This document shows, one piece after another, positions 13,079 through 27,183 of a stretch of DNA of 64,000 bases (within the stretch, counting starts at the first letter, position 1; every line of letters starts with the position of its first letter). The stretch comes from an uncultured Bacteroidales bacterium. GTDB lineage: Bacteria; Bacteroidota; Bacteroidia; Bacteroidales; UBA1402. The translations under genes were made by a program, and so were the position numbers. The notes below the pieces were generated by a model. The model was not told the origin of the DNA. It saw only the letters and a list, made by a program, of their open reading frames with translations, and did no database searches. The stretch covers positions 2,454,808 to 2,518,807 of the forward strand of contig OW818699.1 of assembly GCA_942493385.1 (NCBI GenBank), written 5' to 3'.

Positions 13079-14314
13079 CTAAAAACTGTATGAAACCAGA
13101 ATGTTGCTGCTCCGAGTTTCAGACCCAAGGATAATATAAGGCGACATGCCTCCACCAAAAGCATATCGTGTTTCTAAAGTGAAGTGTTTGTAAATAATAC
13201 CAGCTCCGAATAAGAATCCCATTTCAAAGCGATAGATGTCATTCAAAGCCTTACCGTTTTCGTTCCAGTCTGAATTGTTTTTGGATATGCGTTCCTGATC
13301 ATTTATTTCATGTAGTATATTTCCCATCGAAAAACCTCCATTTACAAACAAAACCCCATTTTGTAGGAGTATTCGGTACCTTAAGAGGTTGTTCAGCTTT
13401 AGATAACCAAAATCGATGTTGGTATTGAATATACGACTGCCATCATCGTAACTACCACCGAACTTGTACGTCGCATACAAAAGTTCACTGCATATCGACC
13501 ACCGACCACGATTTCTCGGCTCCACAAATTCGACAAAAATCCCCGGTGTAAAGGATAATCCTGGTGAATACGTTGGTAAAACCAATTCTGGAAATTCAGT
13601 TCCGGTGAAATGAATGGAATTGATGCTTGCTCCTGCAATCAACCCATAGTTTACTTTGAACTTTATCTTTTTAATTTGGTTAAACTTGGTCGGCCTGACA
13701 AGCTTGTTGTAGGCATTGAAAAGTGCGGTCAGATTGTATCTGGTATACTGAACTCCTTCAATGGTTTTCTTCAATTCTGGTCGGTCGCTCATGTAGTAAA
13801 TTAACTGACCAACGTATTTTTTATACTCCCTAACGCTATTCACATCGTTAATATCATTATGATATAGCTTGTATCCCAATAGTTGGTAGGTAGTGTCAAT
13901 TTTTAAATAGAATAAATCGTCCGTATTGGAGTCCTTGTAATAGTAAAGACTTTTCTCTCCTATGACAAGAGCCCTCAGAAATACTGATTTTCTCTTTAAT
14001 TGCAATGCTGGATCATAGCTAATTGACTCATTCAACCGGGAACTATTTTCAATTTCAGCCTCTGTGCCTACATAGACATCACCATCGACCTGAAACATTT
14101 TGACATCTGTAGGTTGGTAAACGAGCACTTTGTCACCCTGCTTTTTGCAAAATCGGATGGACTCAGGGCTAAATTCCCAGTTTTGATAATCAACCATTCC
14201 AGTGAGGGTGTCACCGACTGAAGTCACAACCACGCCCGGTATGAAATTTTCTATAGCCTGAATTAAGTTGGAAACAGTCAGCAATAGTAATAAAGTAAAA
14301 ATTCGGTGTGTCAT
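13079..14314 (-). CDS. Outer-membrane beta-barrel protein of unknown function (paralog of 6465..7637)
   Basis: Signal peptide. C-terminus GGGMSPYIILGSETRSSNILVSYSF. Same three-part layout as paralog A. Confidence 0.7.
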   Translation of the reverse strand: MTHRIFTLLLLLTVSNLIQAIENFIPGVVVTSVGDTLTGMVDYQNWEFSPESIRFCKKQGDKVLVYQPTDVKMFQVDGDVYVGTEAEIENSSRLNESISYDPALQLKRKSVFLRALVIGEKSLYYYKDSNTDDLFYLKIDTTYQLLGYKLYHNDINDVNSVREYKKYVGQLIYYMSDRPELKKTIEGVQYTRYNLTALFNAYNKLVRPTKFNQIKKIKFKVNYGLIAGASINSIHFTGTEFPELVLPTYSPGLSFTPGIFVEFVEPRNRGRWSICSELLYATYKFGGSYDDGSRIFNTNIDFGYLKLNNLLRYRILLQNGVLFVNGGFSMGNILHEINDQERISKNNSDWNENGKALNDIYRFEMGFLFGAGIIYKHFTLETRYAFGGGMSPYIILGSETRSSNILVSYSF

Positions 14315-19256: not shown

Positions 19257-20825
19257 ATGAAAACGAAATGGATGATTTCGATGACCCTGGCATTGATGTT
19301 TACGGGACTCGCACAGGCTCAAACCTTCGAGGATGACCTGTATTACAATCCGAAAACGGCTAAAGCGGAAGCCAAACCTAAGCCCCAAAAGGCAAGCCAA
19401 GTTCAACAATCGAACAGTAACGTTCGGGTGTACGACCAAACCGGCACCCTTAAAACATACGATTTACGAAATGTGGACGAATACAACCGTCGCCCCAACC
19501 CAAATCAGGTAAACGAGGAGCTTACAGGTGATACGTTGGCTTATACCGACACCTTGGCTTTGGACGAAAACGGTCAACCTTTTGAATATTCAGAACGAAT
19601 CCGTCGTTTTCACAACCCCAAATTCACCAAGCAAATTACCGATGATGAGTACATCAGTATTTATGTGGAAGATGGAGCAGACGTGAACATTTATTATGTG
19701 GACGGAAATGCCAACCAATTCATGAGCCCGTATTATTACGACAACTATTGGTATCCTACCTACGGTTACGGATGGAACAACTGGTATCGACGCGGTTGGG
19801 GCATGTATTACGACCCATGGATGTATTCAGGCTGGGGATTTTCAGATCCTTGGTATTCAGGATATTACGGTTACGGTTTCGGCAGCTGGTACGATCCATG
19901 GTGGGGTTATAACGGCTACGGAAGCTGTTATGGCGGTTATTATGGTTATGGCTACGGGAACTATTACGGTTACGGCGGCGGTTGGGGCTACGGCTACGGT
20001 GGCAGCTATGGCACGCTCGGTCGTGACGCTTTCTCCAGAAACCGGCATACCCTTTCCAACAATCAGCGTGATTTCATTTCCAATGTCGGCAGCGGTCATT
20101 TAGGCAGCAGCCGAGCATCCAGTGGTAGTGGTGGCACTCGATCAGGATCAACGTTTTCTGCCATGAATCCCGGATCCAGAACCGGAAATGGTACTTATAC
20201 TAATTCACGTGTTAACGGTTCTGGCATGGGAACCCGTACAAACAGCAATTATGGTGACAACTTGAATGCTGGAAGCAGGAACACGTATAGTCCTACGACA
20301 CGAAGCTCCAACAGCAATTCATCAACCAGATCGGGCAGTTACAGCACCACCAGCAGACAACCTGCCACCGGATCGTACAGCACCAGTCGTGGCAATGCAA
20401 CAACCAATAGCAGTTACGGAACAAGTCGAAGCAATACCGGAAGTACGGGCAATTACAATACGTCACGCACAAGTACTGGCAGCAATTCGACATCTACACC
20501 TCAGACTCGCACTGCACCTACATCCACTGGAAACAATTCAGGCAGTTACGGAACAGCAAGGACCAGCACTTCTGGCTCTTCAAGTACAACAAGAACAACA
20601 TCATCGTCGTCTTCGTCCACATCAAGACAGACGTATAGCACACCTTCTTCAACTCCAACTTATACGCCGACCAGCACGCCATCCTATACTCCATCCTCCA
20701 GTTCCAGTTCCAGTTCCAGCTCCAGTTCTAGCTCCAGCTCCAGCTCTAGTTCTGGGGGCGGCTCGCGCAGCAGTGGTGGCGGTAGCAGCAGCAGCGGCGG
20801 TACTTTCGGTGGAGGACGCAGGTAA
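19257..20825 (+). CDS. Secreted low-complexity protein: Tyr/Gly/Trp-rich segment, Ser/Thr/Asn/Arg-rich segment, poly-Ser tail
   Basis: Signal peptide ..FTGLAQA-QT, then an ordinary-composition region to about aa 155. Aromatic/Gly block at aa 158-252 (nt 19728-20012), e.g. GYYGYGYGNYYGYGGGWGYGYGGSYG. About 200 aa of S/T/N/R/G, then S20 and GGGSRSSGGGSSSSGGTFGGGRR. Confidence 0.7.
   Translation: MKTKWMISMTLALMFTGLAQAQTFEDDLYYNPKTAKAEAKPKPQKASQVQQSNSNVRVYDQTGTLKTYDLRNVDEYNRRPNPNQVNEELTGDTLAYTDTLALDENGQPFEYSERIRRFHNPKFTKQITDDEYISIYVEDGADVNIYYVDGNANQFMSPYYYDNYWYPTYGYGWNNWYRRGWGMYYDPWMYSGWGFSDPWYSGYYGYGFGSWYDPWWGYNGYGSCYGGYYGYGYGNYYGYGGGWGYGYGGSYGTLGRDAFSRNRHTLSNNQRDFISNVGSGHLGSSRASSGSGGTRSGSTFSAMNPGSRTGNGTYTNSRVNGSGMGTRTNSNYGDNLNAGSRNTYSPTTRSSNSNSSTRSGSYSTTSRQPATGSYSTSRGNATTNSSYGTSRSNTGSTGNYNTSRTSTGSNSTSTPQTRTAPTSTGNNSGSYGTARTSTSGSSSTTRTTSSSSSSTSRQTYSTPSSTPTYTPTSTPSYTPSSSSSSSSSSSSSSSSSSSSGGGSRSSGGGSSSSGGTFGGGRR
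20695..20754 (+). repeat. Imperfect (TCC-AGY) hexanucleotide repeat encoding poly-Ser
   Basis: Reads tcc tcc agt tcc agt tcc agt tcc agc tcc agt tct agc tcc agc tcc agc tct agt tct. Confidence 0.8.
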
Positions 20826-20843
20826 TACATAATACAGATTCAA

Positions 20844-22370
20844 ATGAAAAAATACATTTTATTGGCGTTTCTGTCAGTGTATGGCCTTACAGCTTTTGCA
20901 CAGGCTGAATTTGACGCACTTAGGTTGTCACAAACAGACATTATCGGCACAGCACGCTTTGTTTCGATGTCTGGTGCTTTCGGAGCATTGGGAGGCGATA
21001 TGAGTGCCATCAACCTGAATCCTGCTGGAATCGGAGTTTATAGAAGTTCGGAATTAACATTGTCTCCTTCGTATCAAATGGATAATTCCAACTCGAATTT
21101 TAATGGTACGAAAGGAGTGGCATCGAAAGTGAACGTTCTGATGAATGGTTTTGGATATGTGGGTTCATTTCGTACGTATGATGAATCGGCCATTTCCAAT
21201 TTCAATTTTGGAATAACGTACAACAAACTTGCCGATTTTAACCGTAACACCAGTGTGTTAGGTGATAATCGTGCCGTCTCGTTGTTGGATAGAATTTGCT
21301 TCGTCGAGAACGGTATGTGGTACGACGATGGTTCACATCCCGACCACACCAACTTTTACGACTATGTGAACGGAGTCCATGTCATCGGGCTAAATTCATT
21401 AGGTGATCGATATGTACCATTGTTGGATGGTGGTGAAAAAACCAACACGGATTTGCAGATACAAGAAATCGGCGGAATAAACTCATTAAACTTTACCTTG
21501 GGAGCAAATTACAACCATTCCTTGTATGTGGGTATCGGCTTAGGCGTTCAAAGCATTAATTATGAAAGGTACAGTGAATATTCCGAAAATTATGAGAAGG
21601 GGGGAGGCACTGACATGCACAATACTCTTTATACTTCTGGTACAGGCTATGACTTCAAGGCTGGTGTCATTTACAGACCAGTCCCTGAACTCAGACTGGG
21701 CATTTCAGCACGCTCCGGAACGTATTATGCTCTGACGGACGTATTCAATGCCTCCATGGCTTCCTGGGGCTTCATCAATCCGAATACCAATGCGGTATAC
21801 AATCCAGACCCGATCGTAGAGGGAACTGAACAATATGTGGACTACATGCTGACAACTCCTTGGCAATTGACACTGAGCGCTGCCTACCAATTTGAAAACA
21901 AAGGGTTGTTGAGCGTTGACTTCGATTATGTAGACAACAGAAACACGTCCTTAAAAAACGGCAGCGGATTTGAAATGACTGAAATCAATGACTACATCGA
22001 TTATGATTTTCAGAAAAGCTATAATGTTCGAGTTGGGGGTGAAATGCGCCTTTCCGACAACTTCAGCGCGCGGATGGGGGCAGCCTATTACATGTCACCA
22101 CTCATTTCCAATGTGGAAACGTATGATATTGCAACTGCCTATACAAGACCTGAATACACGGTATTAAAAAGTACCATGTATGCTTCCTTGGGAGCCGGAT
22201 ACCGTTCGGGTGCCTTCTTCCTGGATGCAGCATTGCAGGAACGAATTAGCAACGAACACTTCTTTAGCTTTAACGAAATCATTGTTGCTAAAGATTCTCC
22301 GCCTCCAACGTATGCAACTTTGACACGTGACAAAGTAAGTCTGGTCGTGACCGCAGGTTTCAAATTCTAA
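20844..22370 (+). CDS. FadL/PorV-like outer-membrane beta-barrel protein
   Basis: Signal peptide. N-terminal segment ARFVSMSGAFGALGGDMSAINLNPAGIG is typical of FadL/PorV-type barrels. C-terminal LVVTAGFKF. Starts 18 nt after the low-complexity gene. Confidence 0.7.
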   Translation: MKKYILLAFLSVYGLTAFAQAEFDALRLSQTDIIGTARFVSMSGAFGALGGDMSAINLNPAGIGVYRSSELTLSPSYQMDNSNSNFNGTKGVASKVNVLMNGFGYVGSFRTYDESAISNFNFGITYNKLADFNRNTSVLGDNRAVSLLDRICFVENGMWYDDGSHPDHTNFYDYVNGVHVIGLNSLGDRYVPLLDGGEKTNTDLQIQEIGGINSLNFTLGANYNHSLYVGIGLGVQSINYERYSEYSENYEKGGGTDMHNTLYTSGTGYDFKAGVIYRPVPELRLGISARSGTYYALTDVFNASMASWGFINPNTNAVYNPDPIVEGTEQYVDYMLTTPWQLTLSAAYQFENKGLLSVDFDYVDNRNTSLKNGSGFEMTEINDYIDYDFQKSYNVRVGGEMRLSDNFSARMGAAYYMSPLISNVETYDIATAYTRPEYTVLKSTMYASLGAGYRSGAFFLDAALQERISNEHFFSFNEIIVAKDSPPPTYATLTRDKVSLVVTAGFKF

Positions 22371-24378
22371 TCTCCGTATTTTTTTGTAGTTCTTCCAGTT
22401 TGAGAACTTCGTCCCGGTACTGAGCGGCTTCGAGAAAATCGAGCCGCTTTGCTGCTTCTTGCATGGCCTTACGGGCTTTATCAATGGTTTTCTGCAGCTG
22501 TGTAGGATTCATGTGTGATAAGATGGGGTCGGCAACCAAACTGGTCCGTTCAGGTTCAATATACGCTTTTGGCTCGGCCGAACGCGCGAATTGGCCTAGT
22601 CCAGAAACCTTGTCTTTGATAATGGCAGTAGGAGTGATGCCGTGCGCTTCGTTGTATGCCTTTTGCTTGACGCGCCTACGGTTGGTCTCCTCGATGGTGA
22701 TGCGCATGCTTTCTGTCATCTTATCGGCATACATGATGACTTTCCCCTCCAAATGTCGTGCGGCACGTCCGGCAGTTTGCGTCAGTGAACGGTGATTTCT
22801 GAGGAATCCTTCTTTATCGGCATCCAAAATGGCCACCAGCGAAACTTCAGGCAAATCGAGGCCTTCGCGAAGCAGATTCACACCAACCAGAACGTCGTAA
22901 ACACCAAGGCGAAGGTCTTCCATGATTTTCACACGATCCAAGGTATCCACATCCGAATGAATGTAGCTGCATTTAATGTTTAAACCAATCATGTAGGTAG
23001 TCAGTTCTTCCGCCATGCGTTTGGTCAGTGTGGTAACCAACACACGCTCATCCTTGGAAGCCCTAACGTGGATTTCTTCCATCAGATCGTCCACTTGATT
23101 CTTGCTGGGACGAACGGAGATCTCCGGATCCAATAAACCAGTTGGACGTATAACTTGCTCAACTACTACACCTTCCGATTTTTCAAGTTCGTAATCACCC
23201 GGTGTGGCACTCACATAAACCACTTGTTTCTTAATGCCTTCGAACTCTGCAAAGCTGAGCGGACGGTTGTCGATGGCTGCAGGAAGGCGGAAACCGTATT
23301 CCACTAGATTTGTCTTTCGTGCACGGTCGCCTCCCCACATGGCGCGAACCTGTGGAAGTGAAACATGGCTTTCGTCGATGACCATCAGAAAGTTCTCCGG
23401 AAAAAAGTCCAGCAAGCAATACGGTTGGTCACCTGGTTGACGGCCGTCAAAATACCTTGAATAGTTTTCGATGCCGGAACAATGGCCGAGTTCACGGATC
23501 ATTTCCACATCGTAGCTCACGCGTTCCTGCAAACGCTTAGCCTCGAAGGGTTTTCCTACGGAGTTGAAAAAGGCAACTTGCTTATCGAGGTCGGCCAAAA
23601 TCATTTCGATGGCGATGGCTATGCTTTCTTTGCTGGTTACGAACAAGTTGGCAGGAAAAATCCGGAATTCGTCGGTGGTTGTCAGGGTGCGTCCGTTAAT
23701 TGGATCGATGGTGGAAATGCTGTCAATTTCATTTCCCCAGAAAACGACTCTCAAGATGGAATCGGCATACGCCAAAAAGATATCAACTGTATCGCCCTTG
23801 ACCCGAAAATTCCCACGCTGAAGATCCACTTCGTTTCTGGAATAAAGGATATCCACCAGTTTTCGAAGGAAAACGTTCCGATCCAGCTTTTGACCCCGAT
23901 GGACGTCCACGACCGTTTTCTTGAAATCCTCTGGATTACCGATACCGTAAATGCAGGAAACGGACGAGACGACCAACACGTCCTGTCTGCCAGAAAGCAA
24001 AGCTGATGAAGCGGAAAGCCGGAGTTTTTCGATTTCTGCATTGATGGCAAGGTCTTTCTCAATATAGGTGTCGGAGGAGGGTAGGTACGCTTCCGGTTGG
24101 TAATAATCGTAATAAGAAACATAATACTCCACGGCATTGTCCGGGAAAAAGCTCTTGAATTCGCCATAAAGCTGAGCAGCCAGCGTTTTGTTGTGGCTGA
24201 GCACCAGGGTTGGCCGTTGAATTTCTTTCACCACATTCGCCATGGTGAACGTTTTACCCGAACCTGTCACGCCCAAAAGCGTCTGATAAGGCATGCCTTG
24301 ATTGATGCCTTCAACGAGCTGCCGGATGGCTTCAGGCTGGTCGCCAGTGGGAACGTAAGGGGAAACAAGATTGAACAT
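22360..24378 (-). CDS. uvrB: Excinuclease ABC subunit B
   Basis: GVTGSGKTFTMA Walker A, DESH box (VIDESHVSLPQ), C-terminal UVR domain (AAQYRDEVLKLEEL). 672 aa. Confidence 0.96.
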   Translation of the reverse strand: MFNLVSPYVPTGDQPEAIRQLVEGINQGMPYQTLLGVTGSGKTFTMANVVKEIQRPTLVLSHNKTLAAQLYGEFKSFFPDNAVEYYVSYYDYYQPEAYLPSSDTYIEKDLAINAEIEKLRLSASSALLSGRQDVLVVSSVSCIYGIGNPEDFKKTVVDVHRGQKLDRNVFLRKLVDILYSRNEVDLQRGNFRVKGDTVDIFLAYADSILRVVFWGNEIDSISTIDPINGRTLTTTDEFRIFPANLFVTSKESIAIAIEMILADLDKQVAFFNSVGKPFEAKRLQERVSYDVEMIRELGHCSGIENYSRYFDGRQPGDQPYCLLDFFPENFLMVIDESHVSLPQVRAMWGGDRARKTNLVEYGFRLPAAIDNRPLSFAEFEGIKKQVVYVSATPGDYELEKSEGVVVEQVIRPTGLLDPEISVRPSKNQVDDLMEEIHVRASKDERVLVTTLTKRMAEELTTYMIGLNIKCSYIHSDVDTLDRVKIMEDLRLGVYDVLVGVNLLREGLDLPEVSLVAILDADKEGFLRNHRSLTQTAGRAARHLEGKVIMYADKMTESMRITIEETNRRRVKQKAYNEAHGITPTAIIKDKVSGLGQFARSAEPKAYIEPERTSLVADPILSHMNPTQLQKTIDKARKAMQEAAKRLDFLEAAQYRDEVLKLEELQKNTEIRI

Positions 24379-26232: not shown

Positions 26233-26327
26233 AGGTCCCAGATCCTTAAAAAACGTTGGAAAACCATGCTGCACGGGCATTTCCGTTAATTTTTGCTGTT
26301 TCTTTTCGCTTATTGGAAGGGAAGTGT

Positions 26328-26335
26328 TACCTTTG
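26328..26335 (+). promoter_or_regulatory. -7 box TACCTTTG for bamD-rpoZ-DUF4293
   Basis: Exact TAnnTTTG; extended form TACCTTTGTGCAA. 45 nt before ATG 26380. Confidence 0.5.
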
Positions 26336-26379
26336 TGCAACTTTTCATACAACATGGAAAGGGTATGGACTGTAACGGT

Positions 26380-27183
26380 ATGAAGTGGAGATTTCTAATA
26401 ATTATATTGCTGGGTATTAACCTGGTTTCCTGTTCTGACTATCAGAAATTACTGAAAAGTACCGATTATGAATTGAAGTGGAAAAAAGCCAACGAATTCT
26501 ACGAACAGAAAAAATATACCCGTGCCATTGAGTTGCTGGAGGAGCTCCAACCCATTCACAAAGGAACGGACAGAGCTGAACAAACCCTTTTCATGCTGGC
26601 AAACTCGTATTACAACCGAAAGGATTATTATTCTGCTTCAGGCTATTTTGAGACCTATACCAAAACCTATCCGAAGGGTATCTTCGCAGAAGATTGCCGG
26701 TTCTTGGCCGGAAAAGCGGCTTATCTGAATTCTCCGGATCCAAGGTTGACTCAGGAAGAAACCATCAAGGCGATGGACCAGCTGAATGTCTTTCTGGATT
26801 ATTATCCCGAAAGTGACCGACAGCAGGAAGTGATGAAAATGTTGAGCGATTTGCAAGACAAACTGGTTTACAAACAATTGCTGGCGAGCAAGTTGTATTA
26901 TGACTTGGGTGATTATATGGGAAACAATTACCAATCATGCATTATTACCGCCAACAATGCGTTGATGGATTTTCCAGTTTCAAAATACCGGGAGGAATTG
27001 TCCTTCCTAATTCTTAAATCACGATATATGATGGCACTGCAAAGTGTGGATAACCTCAAAATGGAACGTTTCAGGGCTACTCAGGATGAGTATTACAGTT
27101 TTCTGAATGAATTTCCTGAAAGCAAGCACTTAAAAGATGCAGAAGACATCCTCAAAGAATGTAAGAAAATAATCAAAGAATAA
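26380..27183 (+). CDS. bamD: Outer membrane protein assembly factor BamD (TPR lipoprotein)
   Basis: Lipoprotein signal LGINLVSC. TPR-like repeats (YEQKKYTRAIELLE, YYNRKDYYSASGYFE). Synteny with rpoZ. Start moved to ATG 26380, downstream of the -7 box. Confidence 0.85.
   Translation: MKWRFLIIILLGINLVSCSDYQKLLKSTDYELKWKKANEFYEQKKYTRAIELLEELQPIHKGTDRAEQTLFMLANSYYNRKDYYSASGYFETYTKTYPKGIFAEDCRFLAGKAAYLNSPDPRLTQEETIKAMDQLNVFLDYYPESDRQQEVMKMLSDLQDKLVYKQLLASKLYYDLGDYMGNNYQSCIITANNALMDFPVSKYREELSFLILKSRYMMALQSVDNLKMERFRATQDEYYSFLNEFPESKHLKDAEDILKECKKIIKE

What the first reader, a model, noticed from the sequence alone, without database searches (positions are those of the whole stretch)
19257..22370. 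Secreted Tyr/Gly/Trp-rich plus Ser/Thr-rich low-complexity protein coupled to a FadL/PorV-like barrel: candidate surface-fibre or matrix export module
The 522-aa product has four parts. First a signal peptide, then an ordinary about 135-aa domain. Next comes a 95-aa block (nt 19728-20012) made almost only of Y, G and W with D, P, N and S. It contains three DPW repeats and runs such as GYYGYGYGNYYGYGGGWGYGYGGSYG. After that come about 200 aa of S/T/N/R/G (repeated YSTSR, YGTSRSN and YNTSRTS-like units), then S20 and a Gly/Ser/Arg tail. It lacks a T9SS C-terminal domain. Eighteen nt downstream, with no promoter or terminator between, is a 508-aa FadL/PorV-type barrel. Aromatic/Gly-rich and polar low-complexity sequences are typical of amyloid-like, phase-separating or heavily glycosylated matrix proteins. 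A dedicated barrel partner recalls curli (CsgA/CsgG) and Fap (FapC/FapF) logic. I know of no described equivalent in Bacteroidota.
Basis: partly seen in the sequence, partly recalled or inferred. Interest (0 to 1): 0.7.

Follow-up and report, generated by a model that had tools for sequence, protein, structure and literature searches.

The report
Disordered envelope protein with FadL-like barrel
A secreted, almost wholly disordered protein (a Tyr/Gly/Trp block followed by an Arg/Ser/Thr tail) sits directly upstream of its own FadL-fold outer-membrane barrel; this unannotated two-gene unit is kept together across the phylum Bacteroidota, and I found no publication describing it.

Summary
The 522-aa ORF (19257-20825) has a signal peptide, a 95-aa Y/G/W block, an S/T/N/R/G tail, an S20 run and a GGGRR end. 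The 508-aa barrel ORF starts 18 nt downstream.

The pair is not a local oddity. 78 of 79 testable loci found through the barrel carry the low-complexity (LC) gene directly upstream. All 4 testable loci found through LC carry the barrel directly downstream. No other neighbour is conserved.

The LC family is large (919 clusters at 50% identity, E<=1e-10), has no Pfam or NCBIfam model and is always named 'hypothetical protein'. AlphaFold2 predicts LC to be disordered. What is conserved is a set of motifs: DD[ILV]Y[YF] at the mature N-terminus, DEYNRR, YxxRIRRFHNP, and a basic C-terminus (RR in 58 of 75).

Among the best-scoring family members, most are lipoproteins with Cys about 12 residues before DDxYY and no surface-export signal.

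The barrel is a confident FadL fold with a conserved hatch and NPA motif. It is not BamG and not specifically PorV-like.

Best reading, inferred: LC docks by its N-terminus onto the barrel, as BamH does on BamG, giving an outer-membrane-tethered sticky disordered layer. Curli-like amyloid export is not supported. Function is untested.

The parts
19257..20825 (+). LC gene: 522-aa secreted low-complexity protein (stop codon included)
   Evidence: ORF list. Homologous gene directly upstream of the barrel in 78/79 testable loci. Family of 919 clusters at E<=1e-10. No Pfam or NCBIfam hit.
19257..19319 (+). Signal peptide, aa 1-21, predicted SPase I site AQA|Q
   Evidence: Read from the sequence. 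The only confidently predicted helix in the AF2 model.
19332..19346 (+). N-terminal motif DDLYY (family consensus DD[ILV]Y[YF]), 4 residues after the predicted cleavage site
   Evidence: D and Y are invariant in alignment A3. Motif found in 74 of the 77 sequences tabulated. In lipoprotein-type relatives it lies a median 12 residues after the lipobox Cys.
19473..19493 (+). Motif VDEYNRR
   Evidence: Conserved in most Bacteroidales members.
19587..19619 (+). Motif YSERIRRFHNP, the most invariant element of the family
   Evidence: R114, R117 and F118 are invariant in A4. It is the centre of the conserved core over 201 members. AF2 gives a weak helix at aa 113-119.
19728..20012 (+). Tyr/Gly/Trp block, aa 158-252 (Y29, G27, W11 of 95), with three DPW
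   Evidence: Composition. An equivalent block of median 92 aa and 38% aromatic residues occurs in 75 relatives.
20013..20822 (+). Basic Ser/Thr/Asn/Arg/Gly tail, aa 253-522 (net +20, Arg but no Lys). Includes S20 (nt 20694-20753) and the terminal GGGRR (nt 20808-20822)
   Evidence: Tail charge has median +20 and the protein ends in RR in 58/75 relatives. The last residue is basic in 94/115 distant full-length members. Poly-Ser is encoded by a TCC/AGY hexanucleotide array.
20826..20843 (+). 18-nt intergenic spacer with no promoter-like or terminator-like site
   Evidence: The spacer is 11-214 nt in relatives.
20844..22370 (+). FadL-fold outer-membrane barrel gene, 508 aa (stop codon included)
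   Evidence: AF2 pLDDT 90.3. Foldseek best matches are FadL, TodX and BamG with probability 1.0. Family profile hits 3dwo at E=7e-8. Homologues carry PF03349.
20901..21050 (+). N-terminal hatch region, aa 20-69, the most conserved part of the barrel. Includes GTAR (aa 35-38) and NPAG (aa 59-62, nt 21018-21029)
   Evidence: Conservation profile of A2: 0.65-0.77 for aa 21-80 against 0.33-0.67 elsewhere. Invariant columns.

Best explanation
LC and the barrel are the two subunits of one outer-membrane complex. Shown: the barrel is a FadL-fold protein with a conserved internal hatch, and LC is exported across the inner membrane by a signal peptide. In Bacteroidales that signal is SPase I type. In most of the best-scoring family members it is a lipoprotein signal. 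Inferred: the conserved acidic-aromatic motif DD[ILV]Y[YF] near LC's mature N-terminus, possibly helped by the DEYNRR and RIRRFHNP elements, docks onto the barrel. This would parallel the way the conserved N-terminus of the lipoprotein BamH is wedged into the FadL-fold barrel BamG. The barrel would then serve as membrane anchor or receptor, and conceivably as a conduit. The rest of LC would hang off it as a long disordered chain: an acidic linker, an aromatic Tyr/Trp/Gly 'sticker' block and an Arg-rich Ser/Thr tail. Such a chain can self-associate through Tyr/Trp-Arg contacts and bind anionic polymers or glycans. The result would be a sticky, gel-like tether or layer at the outer membrane, contributing to envelope cohesion or matrix. 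Which face of the membrane it occupies is unresolved. Absence of a lipoprotein export signal favours the periplasmic face. The BamH and PorV precedents favour the surface.
For: The pair is kept together across the phylum. 78/79 testable barrel-seeded loci (Bacteroidales, Marinilabiliales and other Bacteroidia) have LC directly upstream. 4/4 testable LC-seeded loci from distant lineages have a barrel homologue (28-32% identity, E 5e-48 to 4e-57) directly downstream. No third gene is conserved. The spacer is 18 nt here and 11-214 nt in relatives, with no terminator-like site in the window. The conserved parts of each protein match the BamG-BamH pattern. In LC it is a motif placed close to the mature N-terminus. 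In the barrel it is the N-terminal hatch. In BamG-BamH the conserved N-terminus of BamH contacts the conserved N-terminus of BamG, and the paralogous pair BamH2-BamG2 is in a putative operon (PMC12578637). In 123 lipoprotein-type LC members the Cys-to-motif distance has a median of 12 residues (range 1-19). Its narrowness is my reading of the listed examples, which fall mostly at 10-13. This suggests docking at a fixed distance from the membrane. LC is predicted to be disordered, yet its architecture and charge pattern are conserved: N-region median -9, tail median +20, RR end. FadL-fold barrels have already been re-used as protein binders in this phylum, as PorV and BamG (PMC12578637, PMC12611786).
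Against: No physical interaction was tested. I could not run a complex prediction (structure jobs exhausted). The barrel keeps the canonical FadL hatch with the NPA motif, so it may still be a small-molecule channel. The N-terminal extension that marks BamG appears only about 3 residues long here, by my own reading against the E. coli FadL sequence recalled from memory. The disorder prediction rests on a 22-row alignment. About 55 residues after RIRRFH are sequence-conserved in most of the family and may fold when bound. Conserved gene order alone does not prove a complex.
Confidence: 0.45

Rival explanations
1. Dedicated secretion module. The barrel would be the outer-membrane translocon for LC. 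LC would be threaded out as an unfolded chain and assemble outside into an amyloid-like, gel-like or glycosylated matrix or fibre, by analogy with CsgA/CsgG or FapC/FapF.
For: Strict pairing of a signal-peptide-bearing disordered protein with a barrel. LC needs no folding, so a narrow pore could pass it. Conserved terminal motifs (DDxYY, terminal RR) could be export signals. A 14-stranded barrel acting as a protein exporter has a precedent in Slam/T11SS (my own knowledge, not checked here).
Against: The barrel lumen is filled by a strongly conserved hatch, and I know of no FadL-fold protein that conducts polypeptide. LC has no CsgA/FapC-type repeats or predicted beta-solenoid. The barrel shows no relation to CsgG or FapF: the top structural matches are all FadL family. 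Most of the best-scoring family members are lipoproteins without the acidic surface-export signal (118/123).
Confidence: 0.15
2. The barrel is a genuine FadL-type channel for a hydrophobic small molecule such as fatty acids, quinones or bile-related lipids. LC would be its accessory, for example an aromatic 'sponge' that captures or hands over the substrate, or a regulator of the hatch.
For: FadL fold with a conserved hatch and invariant N59-P60 (A61 in >=90%), matching the NPA motif. Its functional importance in E. coli FadL is established knowledge; the ΔNPA mutant structure 2r4o is among the structural hits. Homologues carry PF03349. The profile hits FadL, TbuX and TodX rather than BamG or PorV. 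Aromatic-rich sequence could bind hydrophobic or aromatic ligands (inference).
Against: None of the FadL-family transporters I checked here, or know of, is reported to need a large disordered partner. The long Arg/Ser/Thr tail and basic C-terminus have no obvious role in lipid uptake. The pair is embedded among housekeeping genes (prmA, uvrB, proS), not lipid-catabolic genes.
Confidence: 0.2
3. The two genes are co-transcribed for historical or regulatory reasons only, with no physical or functional coupling.
For: Function is untested. Adjacency to proS in distant lineages shows that ancestral gene order can persist without an obvious functional link.
Against: Flanking genes turn over freely between lineages while this pair stays adjacent, in the same order and on the same strand, in 78/79 and 4/4 loci at 28-35% barrel identity. 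That pattern is typical of interacting products.
Confidence: 0.1

Closest known systems
BamG-BamH and BamG2-BamH2 (Bt4367/Bt4306 and Bt1785/Bt1786) of the Bacteroidota BAM complex (PMC12578637, PMC12611786)
   Same: A FadL-fold 14-stranded barrel paired with a partner protein. In BamG2-BamH2 the partner is encoded in a putative operon with the barrel. The partner's conserved N-terminus binds the barrel next to the barrel's conserved N-terminus. Both are specific to Bacteroidota. BamG chains are among the best structural matches (9hiv_F, 9hjm_F, 9n2d_B).
   Different: Only 12-14% identity and TM 0.50-0.63, no closer than E. coli FadL. The family profile does not detect the BamG sequences in the PDB. 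The barrel is about 100 residues longer, and the long N-terminal extension of BamG appears absent (my reading). The partner is a disordered low-complexity protein, not a folded crescent-shaped surface lipoprotein with an export signal.
PorV (T9SS cargo shuttle, FadL fold) and PorP/SprF-like barrels that anchor type B CTD proteins (PMC9143113)
   Same: Outer-membrane barrels of Bacteroidota that bind a signal on a secreted protein.
   Different: LC has no T9SS C-terminal domain. No PorV chain is among the 50 best structural matches. The pair also occurs in loci labelled uncultured Bacteroides sp., a genus that lacks a T9SS to my knowledge.
Canonical FadL/TodX/TbuX hydrophobic-substrate channels (PF03349)
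   Same: Fold, hatch domain and NPA motif. Best sequence-profile and structural matches.
   Different: About 12% identity and larger loops. Obligate pairing with a large disordered protein. No lipid or aromatic-compound catabolic genes nearby.
Curli (CsgA/CsgG) and Fap (FapC/FapF) functional-amyloid export systems
   Same: Same logic only: a secreted, aggregation-prone protein encoded next to an outer-membrane barrel.
   Different: No homology of either component. LC lacks imperfect amyloid repeats and a predicted beta-solenoid. The barrel is a plugged monomeric FadL fold. This rests partly on my own knowledge that CsgG is a nonameric pore and FapF a trimeric 12-stranded pore.
Eukaryotic prion-like or low-complexity proteins (FUS-type Tyr/Gly/Ser domain plus Arg/Gly domain) and plant glycine-rich cell-wall proteins
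   Same: Compositional grammar: aromatic 'stickers' in a Gly/Ser context (13 [GS]Y[GS] motifs) followed by an Arg-rich region.
   Different: No homology. The location is extracytoplasmic and bacterial. The tail is Arg/Ser/Thr-rich rather than RGG-rich. The resemblance is compositional and recalled from general knowledge; no predictor was run.

Membership tests
FadL/Toluene_X outer-membrane protein family (PF03349) | Significant match to the family model | tested here: inconclusive
   The window protein has no Pfam hit at E<=1. Most homologues down to 32% identity carry precomputed PF03349. A profile of 12 family members hits the P. aeruginosa FadL homologue 3dwo at E=7.4e-8 and TbuX at 0.0027.
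FadL/Toluene_X outer-membrane protein family (PF03349) | Beta-barrel fold with an N-terminal hatch inside the lumen | tested here: met
   AF2 model has pLDDT 90.3 and pTM 0.85. Foldseek ranks 1-27 are all FadL, TodX, TbuX, CymD or BamG, with probability 1.0 and E down to 4e-18. I could not count strands reliably without coordinates.
FadL/Toluene_X outer-membrane protein family (PF03349) | Conserved NPA motif in the hatch | tested here: met
   N59 and P60 are invariant and A61 is present in >=90% of 52 sequences. Position confirmed.
FadL/Toluene_X outer-membrane protein family (PF03349) | Transport of hydrophobic substrates by lateral diffusion | not testable with these tools
   Needs uptake assays or an experimental structure.
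BamG (BAM subunit of Bacteroidota) | Orthology to Bt4367, PgBamG or FjBamG | tested here: not met
   BamG chains are in the PDB copies used (9hiv_F, 9hjm_F, 9n2d_B). Neither phmmer nor the family profile finds them at E<=10. Structural similarity is no better than to E. coli FadL.
BamG (BAM subunit of Bacteroidota) | N-terminal extension of about 10-12 residues that threads the lateral opening, and association with BamA | not tested
   By eye, the mature N-terminus is only about 3 residues longer than that of E. coli FadL, whose sequence I recalled from memory. Association with BamA cannot be tested here.
PorV (T9SS shuttle) | Close structural or sequence similarity to PorV and dependence on a T9SS | tested here: not met
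   No PorV chain is in the top 50 structural matches. LC lacks a T9SS CTD. Loci labelled Bacteroides sp. carry the pair.
T9SS cargo | C-terminal sorting domain (Por_Secre_tail or type B CTD) | tested here: not met
   No Pfam hit in LC or in 10 relatives. The C-terminus is Gly/Ser/Arg low complexity ending in RR.
Curli/Fap functional amyloid systems | CsgA/FapC-type imperfect repeats forming a beta-solenoid, and a CsgG or FapF pore | tested here: not met
   No Pfam hit. AF2 shows no beta-solenoid, mean pLDDT 42.6. The barrel has a FadL fold.
Bacteroidota surface-exposed lipoproteins | Lipobox Cys followed by at least 2 acidic residues within 6 residues (criterion quoted in PMC12578637) | tested here: not met
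   The window LC has an SPase I-type signal and no lipobox. Of 123 lipoprotein-type family members, 118 have no D/E at +1 to +6 and only 2 have two.

The most novel reading that the evidence does not exclude
Bacteroidota carry a previously unrecognised envelope component. It would be a FUS-like, self-associating disordered protein (aromatic sticker block plus Arg-rich tail) clamped by its N-terminus to a dedicated FadL-fold barrel. It would form a condensate-like or gel-like layer that tethers or organises the outer membrane, either as a periplasmic outer-membrane-to-cell-wall tether replacing the missing Lpp or as a surface matrix. Alternatively, it could define a new protein-export route that uses a FadL-fold barrel.
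Probability: 0.2. Interest if true: 0.85.

Novelty: new variant of a known kind. Interest (0 to 1): 0.66.

Why it matters
FadL-fold barrels were long regarded as lipid channels. In Bacteroidota two of them, PorV and BamG, turned out to be protein-binding parts of major machines. The 2025 BAM paper notes that B. thetaiotaomicron has four FadL paralogues and assigns BamG and BamG2; the window's barrel family matches neither and is probably one of the other two, though I did not identify the B. thetaiotaomicron orthologue. This finding gives that barrel family a fixed partner: a large, unannotated family of exported disordered proteins, found here in gut, oral and environmental Bacteroidia and other Bacteroidota. 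If the two form a complex, it is a new conserved element of the Bacteroidota cell envelope. It would also be an unusual bacterial case of an extracytoplasmic Tyr/Arg 'sticker' protein. It is directly testable in genetically tractable Bacteroides and Parabacteroides. A practical point: the LC gene is often frameshifted in assemblies and truncated by gene callers, so it is under-represented in protein databases.

Tried and rejected
- Complex prediction. Both ORFs are in the same reading frame, so I tried to pass window:19257-22367 as one chain. 
- Exact look-up of the window barrel's contig found nothing. The exact LC sequences of the window and four named genomes (three RefSeq) are absent from the protein collection.
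- phmmer of the hatch region alone against PDB sequences gave no hits.
- The supplementary files of the BAM paper contain no FadL, long-chain fatty acid, Toluene or aromatic-hydrocarbon terms, so I could not get locus tags for the other two B. thetaiotaomicron FadL paralogues.
- False literature leads: the 'FadL' hits in an IgA paper were the author name Fadlallah. The TamL preprint concerns Fjoh_4941/4940, which have no visible link to LC. The R. anatipestifer adhesin paper mentions a 47-kDa FadL with no partner.
- Considered and rejected: PEP-CTERM or GlyGly-CTERM sorting (there is no hydrophobic segment before the terminal RR; read from the sequence). Heavy general O-glycosylation (only two D[ST][AILVMT] sites). 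The ORF being an artefact (conserved motifs across hundreds of clusters). The alternative-frame ORFs 20266-20832 (+) and 19857-20099 (-) look like by-products of the repetitive codons.
- Co-variation between the LC motif and the barrel N-terminus was not attempted. About 75 pairs are too few and are confounded by phylogeny.
Full report
**1. The observation**

The window holds two same-strand ORFs, 19257-20825 (522 aa, here 'LC') and 20844-22370 (508 aa), separated by 18 nt.
- Signal peptide at aa 1-21.
- A 95-residue block (aa 158-252, nt 19728-20012) with 29 Tyr, 27 Gly and 11 Trp, and three DPW.
- YSTSR, YGTSR and YNTSR units.
- An S20 run (aa 480-499) encoded by a TCC/AGY hexanucleotide array.
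- A terminal GGGRR.

The charge is polarised: the N-region is -8 and the tail +20. After residue 160 the protein has 25 Arg and no Lys. Sequence entropy falls from about 3.7 bits to 1.3-2.4 bits in the low-complexity parts, while the barrel stays at 3.5-3.9 throughout. Neither protein hits Pfam at E<=1. NCBIfam gives only a meaningless 13-bit hit for the barrel. A sigma-70-type scan finds no promoter-like or terminator-like site in the spacer. The flanking genes are housekeeping: prmA (divergent) and uvrB (convergent, overlapping the barrel's 3' end by 11 nt).

**2. The barrel**

It has more than 1,300 relatives in the 5.8-billion-protein collection. Most carry precomputed PF03349 (FadL/Toluene_X), and the few names are 'outer membrane protein transport protein', 'OmpP1/FadL family transporter' or 'hemin receptor'. 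A 12-sequence profile hits the P. aeruginosa FadL homologue 3dwo (E=7.4e-8), TbuX and TodX in the PDB.

The AlphaFold2 model is confident (pLDDT 90.3, pTM 0.85). Foldseek ranks 1-27 are all FadL-family chains: E. coli FadL, 3dwo, TodX, TbuX, CymD, and the BamG subunits of the B. thetaiotaomicron, P. gingivalis and F. johnsoniae BAM complexes. All have TM about 0.5-0.65 and 10-14% identity. No PorV chain is in the top 50.

The most conserved part of the family is the N-terminal hatch, with commonest-residue frequency 0.65-0.77 for aa 21-80. It includes invariant N59-P60 of an NPA(G) motif.

The protein is therefore a remote, enlarged member of the FadL fold. It is not the BamG orthologue: no sequence-level match to the BamG chains present in the PDB, and about 100 residues longer. 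It is not specifically PorV-like.

**3. LC is a real, widespread gene family**

Using the barrel as bait, 80 genomic loci from different species were fetched, from more than 595 matches. They include Parabacteroides, Muribaculaceae, Odoribacter, Paludibacter, Dysgonomonas, Proteiniphilum, Tannerellaceae, Rikenellaceae, Labilibaculum and Perlabentimonas, plus MAGs labelled Bacteroides or Prevotella.

- In 76 loci an LC-type ORF ends 11-214 nt before the barrel.
- Re-inspection of the six loci that lacked a recognisable LC ORF or its N-terminal motif showed that two are cut by a contig end but still show LC sequence. One is frameshifted, one has a divergent motif, one is untestable, and only L069 lacks LC.
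- The final count is 78 of 79 testable loci.

An all-against-all comparison of every ORF in these loci shows that no other gene family recurs in more than 14 loci.

Searching in the opposite direction, an LC N-terminal profile found 919 clusters (50% identity) at E<=1e-10 and 1,980 at E<=1e-3 among 1.84 billion representatives. Typical length is 400-660 aa. Four LC-seeded loci from distant lineages that could be tested all have a barrel homologue directly downstream (28-32% identity; E 5e-48 to 4e-57). All five LC-seeded loci have proS divergently upstream. Ten members have no Pfam hit, and every source name is 'hypothetical protein'.

**4. What is conserved in LC**

AlphaFold2 with 22 rows predicts essentially no structure. 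Mean pLDDT is 42.6, and only the signal-peptide helix is confident, apart from a weak hairpin at aa 56-68 and a weak helix at aa 113-119.
- DD[ILV]Y[YF], a few residues after the signal-peptidase site.
- D(V/I)DEYNRR.
- YxxRIRRFHNP, with R114, R117 and F118 invariant.

Over 201 members the conserved core reads DDYYDYaYssRIRRFHnP..g.gYYDpyYTN.YWYdYnP.sWGvSIYlGYnWW.P. In most of the family, therefore, the start of the aromatic block is conserved in sequence, not just in composition. It could fold on binding, so the disorder call should be held loosely.

The overall architecture is conserved in 75 relatives:
- Acidic N-region, median charge -9.
- Aromatic block, median 92 aa and 38% aromatic residues.
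- Arg/Ser/Thr tail, median charge +20 and median zero Lys.
- C-terminus RR in 58 of 75.

Among the 153 family members examined (the best-scoring hits of a profile that itself contained many lipoprotein-type sequences), 123 are lipoprotein-type. Their lipobox Cys lies a median 12 residues before the DDxYY motif (range 1-19). 118 of 123 have no acidic residue at +1 to +6. By the criterion quoted in PMC12578637 (at least 2 acidic residues within six positions), they lack the surface-lipoprotein export signal. The window's SPase I form, with motif 4 residues after the cleavage site, is the Bacteroidales variant.

**5. Literature**

Five full-text searches were run; none returned a description of this pair or of the LC family. 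They did return the closest precedent. In B. thetaiotaomicron, P. gingivalis (PMC12578637) and F. johnsoniae (PMC12611786), the BAM complex contains BamG, a FadL-fold barrel. [quoted passage not shown] A paralogous pair, BamH2-BamG2, lies in a putative operon. B. thetaiotaomicron is said to have four FadL paralogues, of which these papers assign BamG and BamG2. PorV is the other FadL-fold protein binder. PorP-like barrels associate with type B CTD proteins for cell-surface anchorage (abstract of PMC9143113).

**6. Mechanism**

Shown:
- Both products have signal peptides.
- The barrel has a FadL fold with a conserved hatch.
- LC is low-complexity with conserved terminal motifs.
- The genes are an obligate pair.

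Inferred: the two proteins form a complex in which LC's N-terminal motif docks on the barrel. The argument rests on three points. First, the strict pairing while flanks turn over. Second, the conserved elements sit exactly where they do in BamH and BamG, at the partner's N-terminus and the barrel's N-terminal region. Third, the tight Cys-to-motif spacing in lipidated members fits docking at a fixed distance from a membrane leaflet. My confidence in this docking model is 0.45.

The remainder of LC has the composition of a multivalent 'sticker' polymer: Tyr/Trp in a Gly context followed by Arg in a Ser/Thr context. I infer self-association and binding to anionic or glycan polymers, giving a tether or gel at the outer membrane. 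No predictor or experiment backs this step.

The side of the membrane is open. Absence of an export signal points to the periplasm. The BamH and PorV precedents point to the surface.

Rivals:
- Dedicated secretion of LC through or alongside the barrel (confidence 0.15). It is weakened by the conserved hatch, by the lack of amyloid-type repeats and by the missing surface signal.
- A true hydrophobic-substrate channel with LC as accessory (0.2). It is supported by the retained NPA hatch and weakened by gene context and by the tail.
- Mere co-transcription (0.1).

**7. Verdict**

I file this as a new variant of a known kind, namely Bacteroidota FadL-fold barrel plus partner-protein modules, with a partner family that is itself new and unannotated. 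Interest is fairly high. A specialist in Bacteroidota envelope biology would find a third conserved FadL-fold barrel-partner pair, with a phylum-wide disordered Tyr/Arg protein, surprising and immediately testable.

Noticed in passing
L002, L085 (5001-6520), L087 (5001-6723); proteins P0140, P0149, P0153, P0170: LC genes are often broken by frameshifts inside the YG-repeat region in assemblies, or are called truncated, with out-of-frame tails such as ...LRLRLRFWLRLW. P0190 is an intact version of the L087 gene. Exact LC sequences from the window and four named genomes (three RefSeq) are absent from the protein collection. The family is probably under-annotated. Real slippage or phase variation was not excluded.
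   Followed up: partly
L085-L089 (LC-seeded loci): In Bacteroidota lineages distant from the window's, prolyl-tRNA synthetase (proS) lies divergently and directly upstream of LC in 5 of 5 loci. In the window and its close relative L083 the upstream gene is prmA instead.
   Followed up: partly
L069:4800-7000: This is the only testable barrel-seeded locus with no LC-like sequence in any frame within 2.2 kb upstream. Its barrel is longer (562 aa) and may be a paralogue that has lost or never had the partner.
   Followed up: no
window 22360-22370: The 3' end of the barrel gene and the 3' end of uvrB (minus strand, 22360-24378) overlap convergently by 11 nt, leaving no room for a terminator between them.
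   Followed up: no
window 26293-27183: A BamD/YfiO lipoprotein gene lies four genes downstream of the barrel, and also in the close relative L083. This is notable because another FadL-fold barrel (BamG) is a BAM subunit. The linkage is not conserved across the 80 loci, so it is probably coincidental.
   Followed up: partly
window 13079-14314 (-): A 411-aa ORF has a signal peptide, no Pfam hit at E<=1e-5 and a C-terminus ending ...LVSYSF, typical of an outer-membrane beta-barrel. It is another unannotated envelope protein.
   Followed up: no
window 20694-20753: The S20 run is encoded by an imperfect (TCC AGY)n hexanucleotide array (TRF period 6, 9.3 copies). Tail length varies from 101 to 350 aa among relatives, which suggests repeat-driven length variation.
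   Followed up: partly
window 19257-22370: LC and the barrel are in the same reading frame, separated only by TAA plus five sense codons. Alternative-frame ORFs inside LC (20266-20832 +, 19857-20099 -, 20293-20493 -) appear to be by-products of the repetitive codon usage.
   Followed up: no
P0181, P0183, P0205 (distant LC members): The tails of lipoprotein-type members share a further conserved element near the C-terminus, TP(V/T)FxPRxxP(K/R)Q(F/Y)(K/R). It is absent from the window's LC.
   Followed up: no
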